Below, piece after piece: positions 1,156-14,189 of a stretch of DNA of 20,934 bases (position 1 is the first letter of the stretch; every line of letters begins with the position of its first letter). The notes under the pieces were generated by a model, which had not been told where the DNA came from, ran no database searches, and saw only the letters and a program-made list of their open reading frames with translations. The position numbers and the translations under genes were made by a program. Location of the stretch: IMG/VR virus record IMGVR_UViG_2703718809_000015, one strand, 5' to 3'. This DNA is from a virus. Its lineage: Duplodnaviria; Heunggongvirae; Uroviricota; Caudoviricetes.

Positions 1156-1350
1156 TTTCTTAAATCTAACGACAGACGGCTAACATTTAAGTATTGTGAA
1201 ATATTATCAAATGTAATCATCATTGATTTACAAAAGATACATTTTGCCCCGAAAGGATTCCTGTCAGAAACATCAAAAGATGATGTTCTATACTGAGAAC
1301 CATGGCAACACGGGCATCTAAAGTGAATATGGTTTGTAATATTTTCTACC

Positions 1351-1563
1351 TCAAAGTGCCACTACATGAACAGCCGCGGGGCCTTTAGGTCCGTTCTCAA
1401 TACCAAATTCGACTTGCTGATTCTCAGTTAACGTTTTGAAATCGTTGCTCTGAATAGCTGAGAAATGGACAAACACATCTTTGCTACCATCTTTCGGCGT
1501 GATGAAACCAAAACCTTTTTCAGGGTTAAACCATTTCACTAAACCAGTCATTTTGTTAGACAT
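1351..1563 (-). CDS. cspI: Cold-shock protein, CspA family (CspI-like, 70 aa)
   Basis: Translation [26 protein letters not shown]...[13 protein letters not shown] carries the RNP-1-like motif KGFGFI and VFVHF. Tandem ATGs at 1561-1566 with AAGG upstream. Long AT-rich 5' region at 1567-1930, typical of csp genes. Confidence 0.85.
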
Positions 1564-1931
1564 CATTATTACCTTTTGAAGAAGTTAGCCCTTGGGCAGA
1601 ATGGTCCGAAAAAAATATCAGAGAGAAAAACCAACAAGGAAATCTCAAGAGGTACAAATAATAAAATTATAACAATGACTGCTTCAGATAATTTTGTAAC
1701 AAACCAGAACACCATTAACGCATGATTAACCAACCATAGCAAGGATTACTTTTGTAAAGAAAAACACACGAATGAAACAATAGCTTTATTTATTAATAAA
1801 ACGTGTCATTCTGTCTAATGACCTTTTATCTTACCCTTAAGATTTCAAGGATTTTGACTCATGGAAGAGTCCTTTTTATTTAAATTTCACATTCAGCACT
1901 AAAAATAATCCGATTTAATGTTAATCTACAT

Positions 1932-4338: not shown

Positions 4339-4613
4339 GTGGTACTTTTTGTGGGAGTCATCCACTTACGCACTTTGTTTTGCTATGCCAGCAGTTAGCT
4401 TCTGCTGTAAAACTATTCATGCAGCAAACCTGCACTTCACCACAATGGTTAGCATACTTTTCCTGATTAAGTTATTGCCAAATATGCTGGCCATTGTTTC
4501 ATGTATTGGACCTCCTTACTATTTATTAAAGAGATCCAATATTCACCACTCTGTCTGTATCTCCACTCAGGCATCAGCCTTCTTCGTTATCGTATACAGA
4601 CAAACTATGAATT

Positions 4614-4829
4614 TTAATCAGTAATTATGACATTTGCTGCTGCAGGACCTTTAGCACCACTCTCTACAGAGAAGGTAACCTTTTGACCTTCAAATAAGGT
4701 TCGATAATTATCATTCTGAATCGCAGAAAAATGCACAAACACATCTTTACTACCATCAACAGGAGAAATAAAGCCAAAACCTTTATCAGCGTTAAACCAT
4801 TTTACTAAACCAGTCATTTTATTTGACAT
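4614..4829 (-). CDS. cspB: Cold-shock protein, CspA family (CspB-like, 71 aa)
   Basis: Translation [71 protein letters not shown]; divergent from the cspF/H-like gene, as cspB-cspF are in Qin. Confidence 0.85.
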
Positions 4830-5129
4830 TCTACATTCCTTAACTTGAGCCTTTCGGCATAAATGGCTTGTATAACAGAAACGACTTCGTACTTAATTGG
4901 AGAGACTCAAAGAAGGAATAAGTGAATAACACCTGAAATGAGAACTGCTTTAGTAAACTACTTCGTATATCGTCTGTTCTTCAAACCGACGCAATCATTA
5001 ACGCATAGTTGAACATATGAAGCAATGTTTATTTTAGACATCCAGCCATCTTCAACCCCATCAAAAAACTATAGCTTTCTTCAGGAACGTGTGTATAGTG
5101 CGCCAAGTTATCAGTATTAAGGAATTTTT

Positions 5130-10413: not shown

Positions 10414-11232
10414 TCACCCCCTGAATCCTGCCGGGATCTGGCTGTAGTCCACGTTGTCGTAACTGGCTTTGAAGTACGGGTCCTCGCGTCTGGCTGCAGA
10501 TACTGCAGGAACTTCCCAGGATTCTTCGAAATGACGATCCGGACCAAAGAACGTGACAGCCTGTTTCACAAATTGTGTGCCGCTGTTACCCATCGCAGAT
10601 ACCCAGCCCGCGTAGCGTTTCACACCTTCCAGCATGGTTTCGGGGTTTACCCCCTCATTCAAACGGGCTTTCCAGGCTTTGAAGGCTGCAGATTTTGAAT
10701 TGCCACCAGCACGTTTGGGATAGGCCAGCCATGCCTGCTCAAACTCCGGAGAGTATTCCGGTCGGTTTGAACGAACTCGCACAGACTCATCAGCAGATTC
10801 ACCAACAGCTATTGGTTCATTGACTGGTTCTTTGACTGGTTCAAAAGAGTGACTGGTTCTGGGTGAATCTCCTGCACTACCCCCTGGTGCAACTCCTGCA
10901 CTACCTGGTGAATTTGCTGCACCAGATAGTGAATTATTTGCACTACCCCCTAGTGAATCTCCTGCATCATCAAGATGAAGAAGATAGATATTACTTGAGT
11001 TACCTTTTTCACCTTTCCGGGTGACTTTTTTTACCAGCCCGGACTCACAGAGGGCCGCAATATGATTCATCACAGAACGTTTGCTAATCTCGCACTGATC
11101 AGCGATATGCTGATAGCTGGGCCAGCACTCACCCTGATCGCTGGCATTATCAGCCAGCTTAATCAGAACCAGTTTTCGCAATGGATTTCCCACTCGAATT
11201 TTCATCGCTTTAACCATCAGCTCCATACTCAT
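10414..11232 (-). CDS. Replication initiator O-like protein (N-terminal HTH, repeat-encoded linker, C-terminal domain), 272 aa
   Basis: N-terminal HTH (QHIADQCEISKRSVMNHIAALCESGLVKK); the central low-complexity linker is encoded by direct DNA repeats; position after the cro / CII-like genes; ATGA overlap with the upstream gene. Confidence 0.6.
   Translation of the reverse strand: MSMELMVKAMKIRVGNPLRKLVLIKLADNASDQGECWPSYQHIADQCEISKRSVMNHIAALCESGLVKKVTRKGEKGNSSNIYLLHLDDAGDSLGGSANNSLSGAANSPGSAGVAPGGSAGDSPRTSHSFEPVKEPVNEPIAVGESADESVRVRSNRPEYSPEFEQAWLAYPKRAGGNSKSAAFKAWKARLNEGVNPETMLEGVKRYAGWVSAMGNSGTQFVKQAVTFFGPDRHFEESWEVPAVSAARREDPYFKASYDNVDYSQIPAGFRG
10812..10975. repeat. Iteron-like direct repeats inside the O-like gene (candidate replication origin)
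   Basis: TGACTGGTTC at 10821-10830, 10833-10842 and 10850-10859; then about five imperfect 21-26-bp repeats of GTGAAT-yt-CTGCAC-...-GTG at 10863-10975; an AT-rich stretch follows at about 10978-11015. Confidence 0.5.
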
Positions 11233-11453
11233 GCAGCACCTCCGAGATGCTTCATGTTTTTTCCGGAGCGAAAGGCTATAAGCGGCATACTGACGCGGTA
11301 ACTACGGCCCAGCGGTTCACAAATCACCTTCTGACATTCACGGTCAACCAGGCTAACACGTAGAACATGCCCTGCAGGTGTGGTGTACCACTGACCCGGA
11401 CGAGGACAACGGAAAGTCTGATTGGTAAACCGTTTGAAAATATTCCGGATCAT
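11229..11453 (-). CDS. Hypothetical protein (74 aa), translationally coupled between the Rha-domain ORF and the O-like gene
   Basis: ATGA overlaps at both ends (11450-11453 and 11229-11232). No family recognised. Confidence 0.45.
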   Translation of the reverse strand: MIRNIFKRFTNQTFRCPRPGQWYTTPAGHVLRVSLVDRECQKVICEPLGRSYRVSMPLIAFRSGKNMKHLGGAA

Positions 11454-12598
11454 TTGCGCCCCCTTACCTCTGAAGGGTTCAGCGACAAATTTATGAGGCA
11501 GGCCAGTGCCGAAGCATCATTAATATAGTCATACAAGCTAACAGCCAGCGGAGATTCGGCTTTTGCCAACATAGGATAAAGCTGCTGCAGCCAGACCTGA
11601 TGAATTGATGAAATGTAGGAATAGAGAATGCTGGCGTTATGTGCAACGTCGCTCGGTACAGAGGGTTTTGAAAGCTGTTTCTCCATCTGGTTAAAGGCAT
11701 TGATATATGCCTCTTTGAACTGGGCAGCACGTTTACCCGTGAAACCCATAGCAAGAAACGCAAAGCCGTCGCGGGTTATTTGATAGCAAGGTAGTTTGCG
11801 GCCTGATGCGTCGATGTACTCACTGAGCTGGAAATTCAGCTCAGTAAATTCGGCAGAGCATTCAAGAGACGCAATTTTTTGAATGACATTTTTGTGTTGT
11901 TTGCCGAAATAACTAGCAACAGCCAGAGAAGAAGTAACAACTTTGTCTGCAATAATGCAAAGTTCAGGTTGTACTAAGGCAGGGATCGTAGCCATGATGG
12001 CAGCCTCCGTATGCAATGGATAACTTCCACCACCGGAAACGCCAATTTCGCTGGTGGTGAACTGAGCAGGGTTGGCGTAACCGGCGCATACGGAAACCGG
12101 CGCACCTTTCGGTGCCCCCACCCAGCCCACCATAATTTGGGTATAGCTGAGTTGTAGCAACAAAAAAGACGCTAACGCGCCAATTGTCGCCGTATGCAAT
12201 TCCAGGACGCCAATCCCGGCACCCGCTTTATAAGGTGCCTGAACAGTGTAACGTCCCGGAATGGCAGAATCAATGTGCTGGTGGTCCTTCACACTCAACA
12301 AAATCACGCCTGAATTTCCACAAAGGACTAAAGCACTCATGCGGGTAGTCTTTGCGAAGATAGATAACGCGCTGTGTTTCTGGCTCCCAACGAATAACAT
12401 GAACATAAAGTCCTCTTCCGTCACGAAACCAGCGGTTAAGTTCCTGCACAACTCGCCCCCCACAGTCAGGTAAAGTTCTCTGTGGTTACTTACAGCCAGG
12501 TGATTTGGTAATCTGCATTCATGCCGTAACAACAGGTGTTCAGCCACGCGGACCACCAGCTGTTGCGACCAACGGTTATTTGCCGTTAAACTGTTCAT
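11450..12598 (-). CDS. Rha-domain phage regulatory protein; 382-aa ORF with an unrecognised about-200-aa N-terminal extension (alternative internal start at 11995 gives about 181 aa)
   Basis: C-terminal half LAVASYFGKQHKNVIQKI...GRKLPCYQITRDGFAFLAMGFTGKRAAQFKEAYINAFNQMEKQL matches the Rha signature. The ATG at 12596-12598 overlaps the stop of the upstream gene (ATGA); a second ATG at 11993-11995 has GGAGG 8 nt upstream. Confidence 0.6.
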   Translation of the reverse strand: MNSLTANNRWSQQLVVRVAEHLLLRHECRLPNHLAVSNHRELYLTVGGELCRNLTAGFVTEEDFMFMLFVGSQKHSALSIFAKTTRMSALVLCGNSGVILLSVKDHQHIDSAIPGRYTVQAPYKAGAGIGVLELHTATIGALASFLLLQLSYTQIMVGWVGAPKGAPVSVCAGYANPAQFTTSEIGVSGGGSYPLHTEAAIMATIPALVQPELCIIADKVVTSSLAVASYFGKQHKNVIQKIASLECSAEFTELNFQLSEYIDASGRKLPCYQITRDGFAFLAMGFTGKRAAQFKEAYINAFNQMEKQLSKPSVPSDVAHNASILYSYISSIHQVWLQQLYPMLAKAESPLAVSLYDYINDASALACLINLSLNPSEVRGRK

Positions 12599-13146
12599 GC
12601 GTTAGTTTCTCCACAGACACAAAACGCCACGACGCCCGGAGCTGCACACTCGCGGGCGTCACTCTTTTCTGGAACGCAGAAAATTTTGTAGACCAGTGCC
12701 GCATGTTCCTGGAGCTTCGAAATCGACAGATACAACTCATCATTAATTGCTGTCTGCTCATGTGGCTCCACTACCCCGTCTTCGATTGCCGAACGAATCT
12801 GCTTTGAGTAACTCCCGATCTGTTCAATAACTTCCAGTAGACGTTGGTTGATATCAGCGTTCTCTACTTCCTCAATTTCTGGAAGTGATACAAACACCCC
12901 ACCAGCAGACTGTGCGACAGCATCCGCAATGTGGTGAGTACCAGCCGCACGCTGTAAAACCATTGCCCATCCCAACGGAAAAAACTGATCGCCATCGGCA
13001 CGAAGGCGGTTAAATAATGCGTTATCTGTTACATCCAGCCAGTCAGCAGCTTCAGCGTAACCACCTGGTAATGCCGCGATAGTTTTTCTGACAGCTTTCA
13101 CGTACCAGTCAGGTTGTTTTTCCACTTTCCAGTGATACTTACCCAC
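12595..13146 (-). CDS. Putative phage regulatory protein at the cII position (183 aa), GTG start
   Basis: Directly downstream of the cro-like gene; GTG at 13144-13146 preceded by AGGAGG with 6-nt spacing. Functional assignment is positional only. Confidence 0.45.
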   Translation of the reverse strand: MGKYHWKVEKQPDWYVKAVRKTIAALPGGYAEAADWLDVTDNALFNRLRADGDQFFPLGWAMVLQRAAGTHHIADAVAQSAGGVFVSLPEIEEVENADINQRLLEVIEQIGSYSKQIRSAIEDGVVEPHEQTAINDELYLSISKLQEHAALVYKIFCVPEKSDARECAAPGVVAFCVCGETNA

Positions 13147-13496: not shown

Positions 13497-14189
13497 ATGA
13501 ACATAGGAAACCGAGTCAGACAACTTCGCCAAGCGAAGAACATGAAAATCGCCGATCTCGCTGAAGCAATAGGAGTGGATGCGGCGAATATCTCGCGCCT
13601 GGAAACAGGTAAGCAGAAACAATTCACTGAACAAGCCCTGAGTAATATTGCCAGGAGCTTAGGTGTTGATATTGCTGATCTCTTTACCTCAGACGTCAAA
13701 AGTAATACTGTATATAAAAACAGTGTTAGTGAGGATGTTGCGCAGGTGAAGGATGTATTCCGTATTGAAATGCTGGATGTCAGTGCCAGTGCGGGAAATG
13801 GCCTTATCCAGGGCGGTGATGTCATTGATGTGATTCATGCCATTGAATACAGAACTGATAATGCTGTATCGATGTTTGGCGGACGACCAGCCAATCACAT
13901 TAAAGTTATCAACGTTCGTGGGGACAGTATGTGTCCAACCATTGAGCCAGGAGATCTCATCTTCGTTGATGTCAGTATCAATCAGTTTGATGGAGATGGT
14001 ATCTATGTATTTGGTTTTGATGATAAAATTTACGTTAAACGACTGCAAATGATACCCGACAAACTGCTGGTAATTTCGGATAATCAGATTTACCGTGAAT
14101 GGGGAATTACCAGCGAAAATGAACACCGGTTTATGGTCTTTGGAAAGGTCTTAATCAGCCAGTCACAAACTCTTAAGCGACACAATTAA
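13497..14189 (+). CDS. cI: CI-like repressor (HTH XRE domain plus S24 LexA-like autopeptidase domain), 230 aa
   Basis: N-terminal HTH (MKIADLAEAIGVDAANISRLETGKQ); C-terminal GDSM serine motif and VKRL lysine; Ala-Gly in the linker (SASAGNG). Confidence 0.85.
   Translation: MNIGNRVRQLRQAKNMKIADLAEAIGVDAANISRLETGKQKQFTEQALSNIARSLGVDIADLFTSDVKSNTVYKNSVSEDVAQVKDVFRIEMLDVSASAGNGLIQGGDVIDVIHAIEYRTDNAVSMFGGRPANHIKVINVRGDSMCPTIEPGDLIFVDVSINQFDGDGIYVFGFDDKIYVKRLQMIPDKLLVISDNQIYREWGITSENEHRFMVFGKVLISQSQTLKRHN

What the first reader, a model, noticed from the sequence alone, without database searches (positions are those of the whole stretch)
11450..12598. Rha-domain ORF with an unexplained 200-aa N-terminal extension and an internal start
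The Rha signature occupies only the C-terminal half of a 382-aa ORF. The upstream 600 bp is stop-free in the same frame, and its ATG at 12596-12598 overlaps the stop of the CII-like gene (ATGA), which argues for real translation. The N-terminal 200 residues resemble nothing I recognise and are rich in W/C/H/G. A second ATG at 11993-11995 with GGAGG 8 nt upstream sits exactly where a stand-alone Rha protein would begin. This could be a novel fusion, a pair of isoforms, or two genes joined by loss of a stop codon.
Basis: seen in the sequence. Interest (0 to 1): 0.5.

Follow-up and report, generated by a model that had tools for sequence, protein, structure and literature searches.

The report
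Antisense-RNA immunity module inside Rha gene
The "unexplained 200-residue N-terminus" of this prophage Rha gene is not a protein domain but a stretch of DNA carrying two small regulatory RNAs (IsrK and C4), their promoter and terminator, and a small gene in another frame, laid out as in satellite phage P4 (its eta/kil genes); it is a known kind of switch that genome annotation routinely mislabels.

Summary

The upstream 603 nt is not a novel protein domain. It holds:
- a DUF4222 gene in another frame (12449-12270);
- a promoter conserved with P4 PLE and Gifsy-1 PisrK;
- IsrK sRNA with its terminator (12238-12162, Rfam 61 bits);
- C4 antisense RNA (12137-12050, 81 bits);
- C4 target sites a2/b2, with b2 overlapping the Rha Shine-Dalgarno.

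C4 loops and their targets co-vary across nine specificities.

The long frame is nevertheless kept open by selection. In 39 unique relatives it has no stops, against stops at 26 variable sites in the other two frames. Indels in the family are multiples of 3, apart from one single-locus 1-nt deletion. In-frame ATGs overlap the upstream gene's stop in five unrelated contexts.

This is the P4 eta/kil "nested genes" layout. Pfam "Ash" corresponds to the Eta extension and matches here (E 2e-17). Best reading: the short Rha is C4-controlled, while the long frame is a translated conduit that lets PR transcripts pass the module. That last step is inferred, not shown.

Verdict: a new member of a known kind, of moderate to low interest.

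The parts
12595..13146 (-). Upstream gene ymfL (CII/CP76-like regulator). Its TGA stop (12597-12595) overlaps the ATG of the long frame.
   Evidence: Pfam Phage_CP76 E 1e-14; RefSeq name YmfL; ATGA seen in the sequence.
11450..12598 (-). Long open frame of 382 codons, the eta-like 'conduit' frame. It starts at ATG 12598-12596, with GGAG at 12612-12609 upstream, and runs through everything listed below into Rha.
   Evidence: Kept open in relatives. No codon-position signal in the extension. Pfam Phage_ASH at aa 117-212, the same family as the P4 Eta extension.
12270..12449 (-). DUF4222 gene, 59 aa, GTG start, in a different frame (the long frame is +1 relative to it). Its TGA stop lies inside the -35 hexamer of the internal promoter.
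   Evidence: Pfam DUF4222 E 9.5e-14; PHROG 1343 full length E 1e-36; third-position substitution bias 3/3/13 and 8/6/29; RefSeq WP_001341559.1; the start codon is ATG in the Stx1-phage homologue.
12245..12273 (-). Putative internal constitutive promoter (PisrK / P4 PLE equivalent): -35 TTGATT (12273-12268), 17-nt spacer, -10 TACACT (12250-12245), with the transcription start near 12238.
   Evidence: The TTG of the -35 and TAnnnT of the -10 are invariant when aligned with P4 PLE and Gifsy-1 PisrK, and 100% conserved in 7 phages. The consensus scanner did not flag it (8 of 12 matches). Activity is inferred from the mapped homologous promoters.
12162..12238 (-). IsrK sRNA (homologue of P4 seqA). 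It carries C4 target copies a1 (12215-12206) and b1 (12199-12188) and an intrinsic terminator (12181-12162).
   Evidence: Rfam RF01394, 61.2 bits against a gathering score of 50, full length. Terminator-like hairpin plus T-run. b1 co-varies with the C4 loop.
12050..12137 (-). C4 antisense RNA (homologue of P4 CI RNA and Gifsy-1 STnc1160). Features: b' loop 12096-12085, a' 12080-12069, tRNA-like CACCACCA 3' end 12059-12050, and an in-frame AUG at 12133-12131 (the Gifsy-1 orf45 start equivalent).
   Evidence: Rfam RF01695, 80.7 bits against a gathering score of 45, full length. MFE -45 kcal/mol, z -3.87. 27 pairs, 11 with compensatory changes, none broken in 12 sequences.
12004..12047 (-). Downstream C4 target sites: a2 (12047-12035) and b2 (12016-12004). 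b2 overlaps the Rha Shine-Dalgarno GGAGG (12008-12004).
   Evidence: Complementarity to a'/b' seen in the sequence. Cognate b':b2 duplex averages 11.1 nt against 5.9 for non-cognate pairs, over 9 specificities. The local fold sequesters GGAGG (z -2.4).
11450..11995 (-). Nested short gene: Rha-domain (Bro-network) regulator or putative antirepressor, 181 aa, ATG 11995-11993. Its TGA stop (11452-11450) overlaps the ATG of the next gene.
   Evidence: Pfam Phage_pRha E 5e-33 at residues 21-106. PHROG Rha-like and anti-repressor families. GGAGGCTGCCAnCATGGCTAC is conserved even where the cargo differs, and homology breaks about 15-20 nt into the ORF.
11229..11453 (-). Next gene in the coupled chain, 74 aa of unknown function, followed by the replication gene 10414-11232.
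   Evidence: PHROG 1153 full length E 5e-45. Overlapping stop/start codons. HTH_36/DnaD_N in the 272-aa protein.

Best explanation
The locus is a P4-type RNA immunity module (IsrK/seqA plus C4/CI) embedded in the early-right (PR) operon of a lambdoid E. coli prophage. It is organised as nested genes like P4 eta/kil.

Shown from sequence and comparison:
- An internal promoter region, conserved with P4 PLE and Gifsy-1 PisrK, precedes IsrK and its terminator.
- C4 lies just downstream of IsrK.
- C4 loops a'/b' are complementary to a1/b1 in IsrK and to a2/b2. b2 covers the Shine-Dalgarno of the Rha gene at ATG 11995.
- The long frame is in phase with Rha and has been kept open by selection.

Inferred mechanism:
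1. In the lysogen PR is off. The internal promoter makes IsrK and, by terminator read-through, a precursor from which C4 is processed.
2. C4 pairs with a2/b2 and blocks initiation at the Rha start. As in P1 and P4 this would cause premature termination, keeping the Rha regulator (putative antirepressor) and the replication genes downstream silent.
3. When PR fires, ribosomes finishing ymfL re-initiate at the overlapping ATG 12598 and translate the long frame through DUF4222, the IsrK terminator, C4 and a2/b2.
4. That translation melts the structures and occludes the target sites. PR transcripts then escape both the terminator and C4, and yield a long Ash-Rha form.

On this reading the amino-acid sequence of the extension is irrelevant. 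It is a conduit, not a domain.
For: RNA genes:
- Rfam C4 scores 80.7 bits and isrK 61.2 bits, both full length and above gathering score.
- The C4 fold has z -3.87 and 11 compensatory pairs with none broken.
- Loop/target co-variation across 9 specificities: cognate duplexes of 9.3 and 11.1 nt against 5.0 and 5.9 nt for non-cognate pairs.
- The extension is not a protein domain. DUF4222 is coding in another frame and the leader shows no codon periodicity. Residues 1-116 have no Pfam hit and residues 1-201 have no significant match to PDB sequences (best E 0.29).

Internal start:
- The SD-ATG junction is invariant across different cargo genes and in P4.

Frame kept open:
- No stops in 39 unique sequences (13 types), against stops at 11 and 15 distinct variable columns in the other two frames; (2/3)^26 = 2.6e-5.
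- Five independent indels in the family are multiples of 3 (three of 3 nt in the isrK-to-ATG interval, two of 6 nt in the leader). The one exception is a 1-nt deletion in a single locus, L081, which also frameshifts DUF4222.
- An in-frame ATG overlaps the stop of a long upstream ORF in five unrelated contexts.
- In the species-level sample 13 of 19 loci are nested, with C4-AUG-to-ATG spacing of 135 or 138 nt. The 6 non-nested loci mostly have 136, 137 or 139 nt, so the RNA system itself does not need spacing in multiples of 3.

P4 homology:
- The P4 199-codon eta spans isrK and C4 and starts with an ATGA overlap on ORF88. It contains EAAIMAT at the kil start and is the full-length Pfam Ash match.

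Functional precedent:
- P4 as summarised in PMC10111431.
- Gifsy-1 isrK-orf45-anrP experiments in PMC4825925. The Gifsy-1 layout was confirmed by Rfam.
Against: - There are no expression data for this element. The transcription start, C4 processing, translation of the long frame and the bypass are all inferred.
- The promoter scanner did not call the internal promoter.
- The module works without a long frame in Gifsy-1, Stx2 II, Tyrion and a Yersinia phage and in 6 of 19 species-level relatives. The conduit is therefore optional.
- The sequences in the frame test are related by descent, so the P-values overstate independence.
- I could not read Forti et al. 1999 itself and rely on a secondary summary.
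- That Rha acts as an antirepressor is an annotation-level inference (PHROGs).
Confidence: 0.72

Rival explanations
1. Only the RNAs and the short Rha gene are functional. The 382-codon frame is never translated as such, and its openness is a by-product of conserved RNA sequence, GC-rich structure and descent from a P4-like ancestor. The 382-aa and 296-aa RefSeq proteins are then pure annotation artefacts.
For: - The extension has no protein-like substitution pattern.
- It overlaps a real gene in another frame.
- It contains an intrinsic terminator and a very stable RNA.
- RefSeq start calls are inconsistent between near-identical genomes.
- Several relatives lack the frame.
Against: - Stops arise freely at 26 variable sites in the other two frames but never in this one.
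- Indels are multiples of 3 only where the frame exists.
- ATGA coupling to the upstream gene recurs in five unrelated upstream contexts.
- The +1 frame over DUF4222 stays open in three lineages although the null probability is about 0.06.
- In P4 the homologous frame (eta) is reported to be translated and functional.
Confidence: 0.17
2. Gifsy-1-type mechanism. Translation starts only at the AUG inside the 5' end of C4 (12133-12131, the orf45 equivalent) on read-through transcripts from the internal promoter, after trans-acting short IsrK opens the structure. Here it runs in frame into Rha, giving a form extended by 46 residues, instead of terminating and re-initiating at an ATGA. The frame upstream of that AUG is irrelevant.
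For: - The window AUG sits at the same C4 position (C4+4) as the start of Gifsy-1 orf45, whose translation and coupling to anrP were shown experimentally.
- The strongest phase-specific absence of stops is in the C4-to-ATG part, with 16 variable stop sites in the other frames.
- No obvious Shine-Dalgarno requirement was tested.
Against: - The frame is also open across IsrK (10 variable stop sites in other frames, none in this one) and back to an ATG coupled to the previous gene in independent contexts. This model does not need either feature.
- There is no recognisable Shine-Dalgarno upstream of 12133 in the sequence.
- The model is compatible with, and not exclusive of, the main explanation.
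Confidence: 0.08
3. The extension is a genuine folded N-terminal protein domain ('Ash domain') fused to Rha, with its own biochemical function, as database names such as 'ash family protein' and 'transcriptional regulator' imply.
For: - Pfam Phage_ASH E 2.4e-17.
- PHROG families include the extension (phrog_821, 3960, 995).
- Ash is listed among 'Bro network' Pfam domains in PMC10111431.
Against: - The Ash match coincides exactly with the IsrK-plus-C4 DNA (aa 117-212, about nt 12250-11963), whose conservation is explained by RNA structure with compensatory changes.
- For Gifsy-1 the authors report that the nucleotide sequence is conserved while the amino-acid sequence varies.
- There is no significant match to PDB sequences.
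- Residues 1-116 have no family and no codon signal.
Confidence: 0.03

Closest known systems
Satellite phage P4 immunity region: nested genes eta/kil around PLE, seqA and CI RNA (Forti et al. 1999 J Bacteriol 181:5225, as summarised in PMC10111431)
   Same: - A long ORF starts with an ATGA overlap on the upstream gene.
- It contains an internal promoter, an isrK/seqA element, a C4/CI RNA, downstream target sites, and an in-frame nested short gene beginning at ...EAAIMAT....
- Both have a Pfam Ash match over the extension.
- Both sit upstream of replication genes.
   Different: - The cargo here is a 181-aa Rha-domain protein instead of the 65-aa Kil.
- The host element is a lambdoid prophage with a protein CI/Cro switch. 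The upstream promoter would be PR and the upstream gene ymfL/CII-like, rather than PLL and vis/alpA.
- The extension additionally overlaps a DUF4222 gene out of frame.
- P4 has about 107 nt between seqA and CI, against 24 nt here.
Gifsy-1 isrK-orf45-anrP locus of Salmonella (Hershko-Shalev et al. 2016, PMC4825925)
   Same: The order is the same: promoter, IsrK with terminator, C4-like RNA (STnc1160), SD, and a Bro-network antirepressor. The same AUG sits at C4 position +4.
   Different: - In Gifsy-1 the ORF from that AUG is 45 codons and stops on the anrP ATG (ATGA). Upstream of anrP the anrP frame is open for only 27 nt.
- There is no long frame and no coupling to an upstream gene.
- The cargo domain is ORF6N rather than Rha.
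- The Gifsy-1 locus lies after antQ rather than in the PR operon.
immI operon of phages P1/P7 (c4 RNA, icd, ant1/ant2; Citron and Schuster 1990, as cited in PMC7313666)
   Same: The C4 RNA has a'/b' loops pairing with a1/b1 upstream and a2/b2 downstream. b2 masks a ribosome-binding site and so controls an antirepressor. Different specificities determine heteroimmunity. The window matches the Rfam family built on P1/P7 C4.
   Different: There is no icd gene between C4 and the cargo in the window; an Icd-like cargo occurs in relative L009. The cargo here has a Rha domain rather than a P1 Ant domain. That P1 Ant1/Ant2 are in-frame isoforms is from my own knowledge and was not tested here.
Bro-network genes of PICI/HE-PICI satellites that carry C4 and isrK hits (PMC10111431)
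   Same: C4 and isrK homologues are reported inside Bro-network genes, a set that includes Phage_pRha and Phage_ASH, and are interpreted as immunity functions.
   Different: Those are satellites. Here the element is a full lambdoid prophage with Q, lysis and replication genes.

Membership tests
Rfam RF01695 C4 antisense RNA (clan CL00128) | Covariance-model score at or above the gathering threshold, over the full model | tested here: met
   80.7 bits against a gathering score of 45, model positions 1-87 of 87, at 12137-12050 minus strand.
Rfam RF01695 C4 antisense RNA (clan CL00128) | Long closing stem enclosing two hairpins, supported by compensatory changes | tested here: met
   27 pairs, 11 with changes on both sides, none broken in 12 sequences. 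MFE -45 kcal/mol, z -3.87.
Rfam RF01695 C4 antisense RNA (clan CL00128) | Loops a'/b' complementary to a1/b1 upstream and a2/b2 downstream, with b2 at the cargo ribosome-binding site | tested here: met
   b':b1 9 nt and b':b2 13 nt in the window. Co-variation across 9 specificities. b2 12016-12004 overlaps GGAGG 12008-12004.
Rfam RF01695 C4 antisense RNA (clan CL00128) | Processed from a longer transcript (RNase P in P1/P7) and represses the cargo in vivo | not testable with these tools
   Only the tRNA-like CACCACCA 3' end is visible.
Rfam RF01394 isrK / P4 seqA | Covariance-model score at or above gathering, ending in an intrinsic terminator and preceded by a promoter | tested here: met
   61.2 bits against a gathering score of 50. 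Terminator hairpin plus T-run at 12181-12162. The promoter hexamers align with P4 PLE and Gifsy-1 PisrK, but promoter activity itself was not tested.
P4 eta/kil-type nested genes | Long ORF containing the seqA and CI elements, with a nested in-frame short gene starting after the downstream target site | tested here: met
   The P4 counterpart was verified.
P4 eta/kil-type nested genes | Start of the long ORF translationally coupled to the upstream gene | tested here: met
   ATGA overlap with ymfL. The same is seen in P4 and in five independent contexts. Coupling is inferred from the overlap and was not measured.
P4 eta/kil-type nested genes | Sequence homology of the extension (Pfam Phage_ASH) | tested here: met
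   Window E 2.4e-17 at aa 117-212. P4 Eta E 3.8e-23, full model. BLASTP between the window ORF and P4 Eta gives E 2e-5 over the C4-to-junction part.
P4 eta/kil-type nested genes | Selection to keep the long frame open | tested here: met
   No stops against 26 variable stop sites in the other frames; indels in multiples of 3; contrast with non-nested lineages.
P4 eta/kil-type nested genes | Translation of the long form prevents termination and makes upstream-promoter transcripts immunity-insensitive | not testable with these tools
   Known for P4 only through the summary in PMC10111431.
Pfam PF09669 Phage_pRha | Full-length domain match above the gathering score | tested here: met
   E 5.2e-33, 113.9 bits against 29.9, profile positions 1-91 of 91, at residues 21-106 of the short form.
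Gifsy-1 isrK-orf45-anrP arrangement | Short upstream ORF from the C4 AUG that stops on the cargo ATG (termination and re-initiation coupling) | tested here: not met
   In the window the ORF from that AUG is in frame with Rha and has no stop for 227 codons. In Gifsy-1 it is 45 codons ending in ATGA.
P1/P7 immI operon | An icd gene between c4 and ant, and an Ant-family cargo | tested here: not met
   b2 and the SD directly precede the Rha ATG, and there is no intervening ORF. The cargo is Rha, not Ant.
Pfam PF13973 DUF4222 | Domain match above gathering and protein-coding substitution pattern | tested here: met
   E 9.5e-14, 51.1 bits against 27. Third-position bias 13 of 19 and 29 of 43.

The most novel reading that the evidence does not exclude
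In lambdoid phages of this SfV/e14-like group, which carry an intrinsic terminator and an antisense-RNA block in the middle of the PR operon, the eta-like conduit frame may act as the anti-termination device at the position where lambda uses N at tR1. Ribosomes handed over from the CII-like gene would carry transcription through the module. This would make the choice between silent and expressed replication, Q and antirepressor genes depend on which promoter made the RNA. It would also yield a second, immunity-insensitive Ash-Rha isoform, and would require a 180-nt stretch to be translated in two frames (conduit and DUF4222).
Probability: 0.4. Interest if true: 0.55.

Novelty: new member of a known kind. 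Interest (0 to 1): 0.35.

Why it matters
- It resolves a recurrent annotation problem. Near-identical DNA is called a 382-aa Rha, a 296-aa Rha overlapping DUF4222, an 'ash family protein' or an 'immunity region' in different records. The two RNAs that explain the region are not annotated in any record examined.
- More than 500 of the 5,426 complete E. coli genomes searched carry at least 80% of this segment.
- Pfam 'Ash' and several PHROG 'transcriptional regulator' families mostly reflect conservation of RNA genes, so function should not be transferred from their names.
- Biologically, this prophage appears to have a second, RNA-based immunity layer of the P1 immI / P4 type. It comes in at least nine exchangeable specificities and gates a putative antirepressor and the replication genes. 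That bears on prophage induction and cross-talk among the many lambdoid and Stx prophages that share the module.
- If the conduit idea holds, it extends a P4 mechanism, promoter-dependent translation that overrides antisense control, to mainstream lambdoid phages.

Tried and rejected
1. A conserved hairpin in the leader (12580-12505) looked possible by eye, but folding gave z -0.9 in the window and -1.6 in the sal3 homologue, which is not significant.
2. The consensus promoter scan did not report the internal promoter, which matches 8 of 12 positions where the scanner needs 9. The promoter assignment therefore rests on alignment with P4 PLE and Gifsy-1 PisrK.
3. A sequence search of the PDB with residues 1-201 gave only noise (E 0.29 or worse).
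4. In one search my translation of the Stx1-phage (L008) 'long frame' showed 8 stops. That was a phase error caused by indels in the leader. Searches show its frame is open for 546 nt upstream of the cargo ATG. I withdrew that argument and kept only the codon-position counts.
5. Forti et al. 1999 (PMC94026) is not held, so the P4 mechanism is cited through PMC10111431.
6. The genome contigs junction scan returned mostly chance matches in unrelated phyla, as expected for 17 specified bases. Only 19 of 116 usable loci had C4 upstream, and only those were used.
7. I did not run structure prediction on the long ORF. An alignment of the Ash region carries RNA-derived co-variation that could mislead AlphaFold, so the result would not be a clean test.
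8. 'Two genes joined by loss of a stop' was rejected because the open frame is present in P4 and in 13 of 19 species-level relatives.
Full report
**1. The observation**

The ORF at 11450..12598 (minus strand) is real: 382 codons with no stop. Its ATG (12598-12596) overlaps the TGA of the upstream 183-aa gene. That gene matches Pfam Phage_CP76/CII, and RefSeq names it YmfL. The Rha domain lies at residues 222-307. A second ATG at 11995-11993 follows GGAGG with an 8-nt spacer.

Over the 603 nt upstream of that internal ATG, the other two frames carry 12 and 6 stops. Synonymous resampling and shuffling give probabilities of 0.059, 0.072 and 0.027 that the three sub-segments would be stop-free, a product of about 1e-4.

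Two side remarks do not hold up. The extension is not notably rich in W or C. Residues 117-212 match Pfam Phage_ASH.

**2. What lies under the 'N-terminal extension'**

Reading 5' to 3' on the minus strand (coordinates):

- **Leader, 12598-12450.** Substitutions against diverged homologues are flat over codon positions (8/13/11), so there is no coding signal.
- **DUF4222 gene, 12449-12270, in a different frame.** Evidence: Pfam E 9.5e-14 and PHROG 1343 E 1e-36. Substitutions fall on its third codon position, 13 of 19 and 29 of 43. That position is position 2 of the long frame.
- **Putative promoter.** TTGATT-N17-TACACT at 12273-12245. The TTG and TAnnnT are invariant when aligned with the P4 PLE and Gifsy-1 PisrK promoters.
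- **IsrK sRNA, 12238-12162.** Rfam 61.2 bits against a gathering score of 50. It ends in a hairpin plus T-run terminator.
- **C4 antisense RNA, 12137-12050.** Rfam 80.7 bits against a gathering score of 45. MFE is -45 kcal/mol with z -3.87. The consensus fold has 27 pairs, 11 with compensatory changes and none broken in 12 sequences.
- **Target sites a2 (12047-12035) and b2 (12016-12004).** b2 overlaps the GGAGG that serves ATG 11995.

The Pfam Ash match (about nt 12250-11963) coincides with IsrK plus C4.

**3. The antisense system is live in this family**

An IMG/VR scan with the IsrK 5' hairpin gave 120 loci. They yield 39 unique IsrK-to-ATG segments in 13 types.

The C4 b' loop, the b1 site in IsrK and the b2 site at the Shine-Dalgarno change together:

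| Phage or type | Shared target sequence |
|---|---|
| window | GCATACGG |
| SfV | GATCAAGG |
| sal3 | GTTATCGG |
| mEp460 | TCACCAAAG |
| Stx1 phage | GTCAACGG |

Further types exist. The a'/a1/a2 sites behave the same way. Over nine distinct b' loops, cognate duplexes average 9.3 nt (b1) and 11.1 nt (b2), against 5.0 and 5.9 nt for non-cognate pairs.

The junction GGAGGCTGCCAnCATGGCTAC is invariant even where the downstream gene differs, and homology breaks about 15-20 nt into the ORF. ATG 11995 is therefore the regulated start of a swappable cargo gene. Here the cargo is a complete 181-aa Rha-domain protein, with the domain at residues 21-106.

**4. The long frame is nevertheless maintained**

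- In all 39 unique segments the frame in phase with the cargo ATG has no stop. The other frames have stops at 11 and 15 distinct variable alignment columns; (2/3)^26 is 2.6e-5.
- Three independent indels between IsrK and the ATG are each 3 nt, and two leader indels are 6 nt. The only exception found is a 1-nt deletion in a single locus (L081). It also frameshifts DUF4222 and closes the frame 240 nt upstream of the IsrK hairpin motif used for the scan.
- In every independent upstream context the frame has an in-frame ATG upstream of the internal promoter. In five unrelated contexts that ATG overlaps the stop of a long upstream ORF as ATGA.
- As a control that does not depend on the IsrK sequence, I scanned one genome per species for the junction. 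Of 19 loci with C4 upstream, 13 have the C4 AUG in phase (135 or 138 nt) and the frame open for at least 357 nt. Seven of those start on an overlap with an upstream ORF of 180-273 nt.
- The other six loci have the frame closed. Their spacings are mostly not multiples of 3 (136, 137, 139). Gifsy-1, Stx2 II, Tyrion and a Yersinia phage are also closed.
- The RNA system therefore tolerates spacing that is not a multiple of 3. The multiple-of-3 rule holds only where the nested frame exists.

**5. What it is**

P4 supplies the model. Its 199-codon eta has these features:

- It starts with an ATGA overlap on ORF88 (vis/alpA homologue).
- It spans isrK/seqA (8692-8615) and C4/CI (8507-8420).
- It contains ...SQEAAIMATTLTPSHPE.... 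The window has ...HTEAAIMATIPALVQPE....
- It ends with the 65-codon kil nested in frame.
- It is the full-length match to Pfam Ash.

PMC10111431, summarising Forti et al. 1999, describes the P4 mechanism as follows:

- A constitutive promoter inside eta gives a transcript that is terminated through the CI/seqA interactions and is processed to CI.
- Kil is translated on occasional read-through.
- Full-length Eta is translated only from an upstream promoter and is coupled to the upstream gene.
- Eta translation prevents termination.

PMC3632133 equates IsrK with seqA and C4 with CI, and notes that some lambdoid prophages carry the pair.

In Gifsy-1 the layout is IsrK, C4 (STnc1160), then the antirepressor anrP (confirmed by Rfam). 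It was dissected experimentally. The ORF starting at the C4 AUG (orf45) is translated, and its translation is needed for anrP expression. Its nucleotide sequence is conserved but its peptide sequence is not. In the window the same AUG (12133-12131) is 46 codons upstream of, and in frame with, the Rha ATG.

**6. Mechanism proposed**

The steps below are inferred unless marked as shown.

- The window is a lambdoid prophage. It has a CI-like repressor (13497-14189, plus strand). On the minus strand it has cro, ymfL, this module, a 74-aa gene, a replication gene, PerC, KilA-N, DUF968, Q and lysis genes, many joined by overlapping stop and start codons.
- **In the lysogen:** the internal promoter would make IsrK and, by read-through, C4. 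C4 pairs with a2/b2 (complementarity shown) and blocks the Rha start, and by polarity the genes beyond it.
- **On induction:** PR transcripts would be translated continuously from ymfL into the long frame. Ribosomes would pass through the IsrK terminator, C4 and the target sites, so that these transcripts ignore the module.
- The extension is thus a conduit, not a domain. A long Ash-Rha form would be a by-product or a second isoform.
- IsrK carries decoy copies (a1/b1) of the C4 targets and may titrate C4, as the Gifsy-1 work suggests.

**7. Rivals**

- (a) The long frame is never translated and is purely inherited. The phase-specific absence of stops, the multiple-of-3 indels and the recurrent ATGA coupling argue against this.
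- (b) Only the C4 AUG is used, as in Gifsy-1. This is compatible with part of the data but does not explain the open frame across IsrK or the coupling to the upstream gene.
- (c) A true folded Ash domain. This is contradicted by the coincidence with RNA genes, the compensatory changes and the absence of a protein-level signal.

**8. Comparison and novelty**

The locus meets every testable defining feature of the C4 and isrK families and of the P4 eta/kil nested arrangement. It fails the specific features of P1 immI (no icd, no Ant domain) and of Gifsy-1 (orf45 stopping on the cargo ATG).

C4 and isrK inside Bro-network genes have been reported for PICI satellites, and the RNAs have been reported in lambdoid prophages. 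I found no explicit description of the nested eta-like frame with a Rha cargo, overlapping DUF4222, in the PR operon of lambdoid phages. Even so, it is a direct homologue of a known arrangement, so I rate it a new member of a known kind.

The practical point is annotation. RefSeq calls near-identical DNA a 382-aa Rha, a 296-aa Rha overlapping DUF4222, or an 'ash family protein', and GenBank calls it an 'immunity region'. The RNAs are not annotated in any record examined. More than 500 of the 5,426 complete E. coli genomes searched carry at least 80% of the segment.

**9. Limits**

- There are no expression data for this element.
- The promoter is assigned by homology only.
- The P4 mechanism was taken from a secondary summary.
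- The sequences in the frame tests share ancestry, so the P-values are upper bounds on significance.
- An antirepressor role for Rha rests on annotation only.

Noticed in passing
L034 6917 and 7786; L043 5981 and 6844; L075 4793 and 5656 (locus coordinates of the IsrK hairpin motif, as printed): Some IMG/VR prophages carry two complete IsrK-C4 modules in tandem. The first controls a 181-aa Rha-like gene. The second IsrK begins 74 nt after that gene's stop, and the ATG of the second module's long frame overlaps the Rha stop (ATGA). Two stacked RNA immunity specificities in one operon.
   Followed up: partly
L067 (IMG/VR), IsrK to ATG segment: One locus looks like a recombinant. Its b1 site (TCAATATAG type) does not match its own C4 b' loop (longest duplex 5 nt), while b2 does (11 nt). 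This suggests exchange between specificities inside the module.
   Followed up: no
window 4551-4990 and 1305-1720, minus strand: Two full-length Rfam cspA thermoregulator (cold-shock 5'UTR) matches, 156.7 and 113.7 bits. They flank the Q antiterminator and lysis region of the prophage, implying two prophage-borne cold-shock protein genes.
   Followed up: no
window 12268-12273 and 12270-12272: The TGA stop codon of DUF4222 lies inside the -35 hexamer (TTGATT) of the putative internal promoter. The small gene, the promoter and the long frame therefore all share the same bases.
   Followed up: partly
window 11229-11453, minus strand: The 74-aa gene after Rha (PHROG 1153, no Pfam hit) begins MIRNIFKRF. 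In the tandem-module phages the same N-terminus opens the second module's long frame. Its sequence (…GQWYTTPAGHVLRV…) loosely resembles DUF4222-like small proteins, but this was not tested.
   Followed up: no
Pfam PF10554 (Phage_ASH); PHROGs 821, 3960, 995, 6928: These protein families largely model translations of the IsrK-plus-C4 DNA, the P4 Eta extension. Their names ('Ash', 'transcriptional regulator/repressor') probably do not describe a protein function.
   Followed up: partly
L081 and L058 (IMG/VR): L081 has a 1-nt deletion at the start of DUF4222 that breaks both DUF4222 and the long frame. L058 has a premature stop in DUF4222 but keeps the long frame open. These are single-sequence observations and may be errors or decay.
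   Followed up: no
L130 (Gifsy-1) 2035-2109, 2344-2417 and 2605-2702: Downstream of anrP in Gifsy-1, Rfam finds isrJ, a tRNA (annotated tRNA-Arg) and isrI, forming a dense cluster of small RNA genes next to the module.
   Followed up: no
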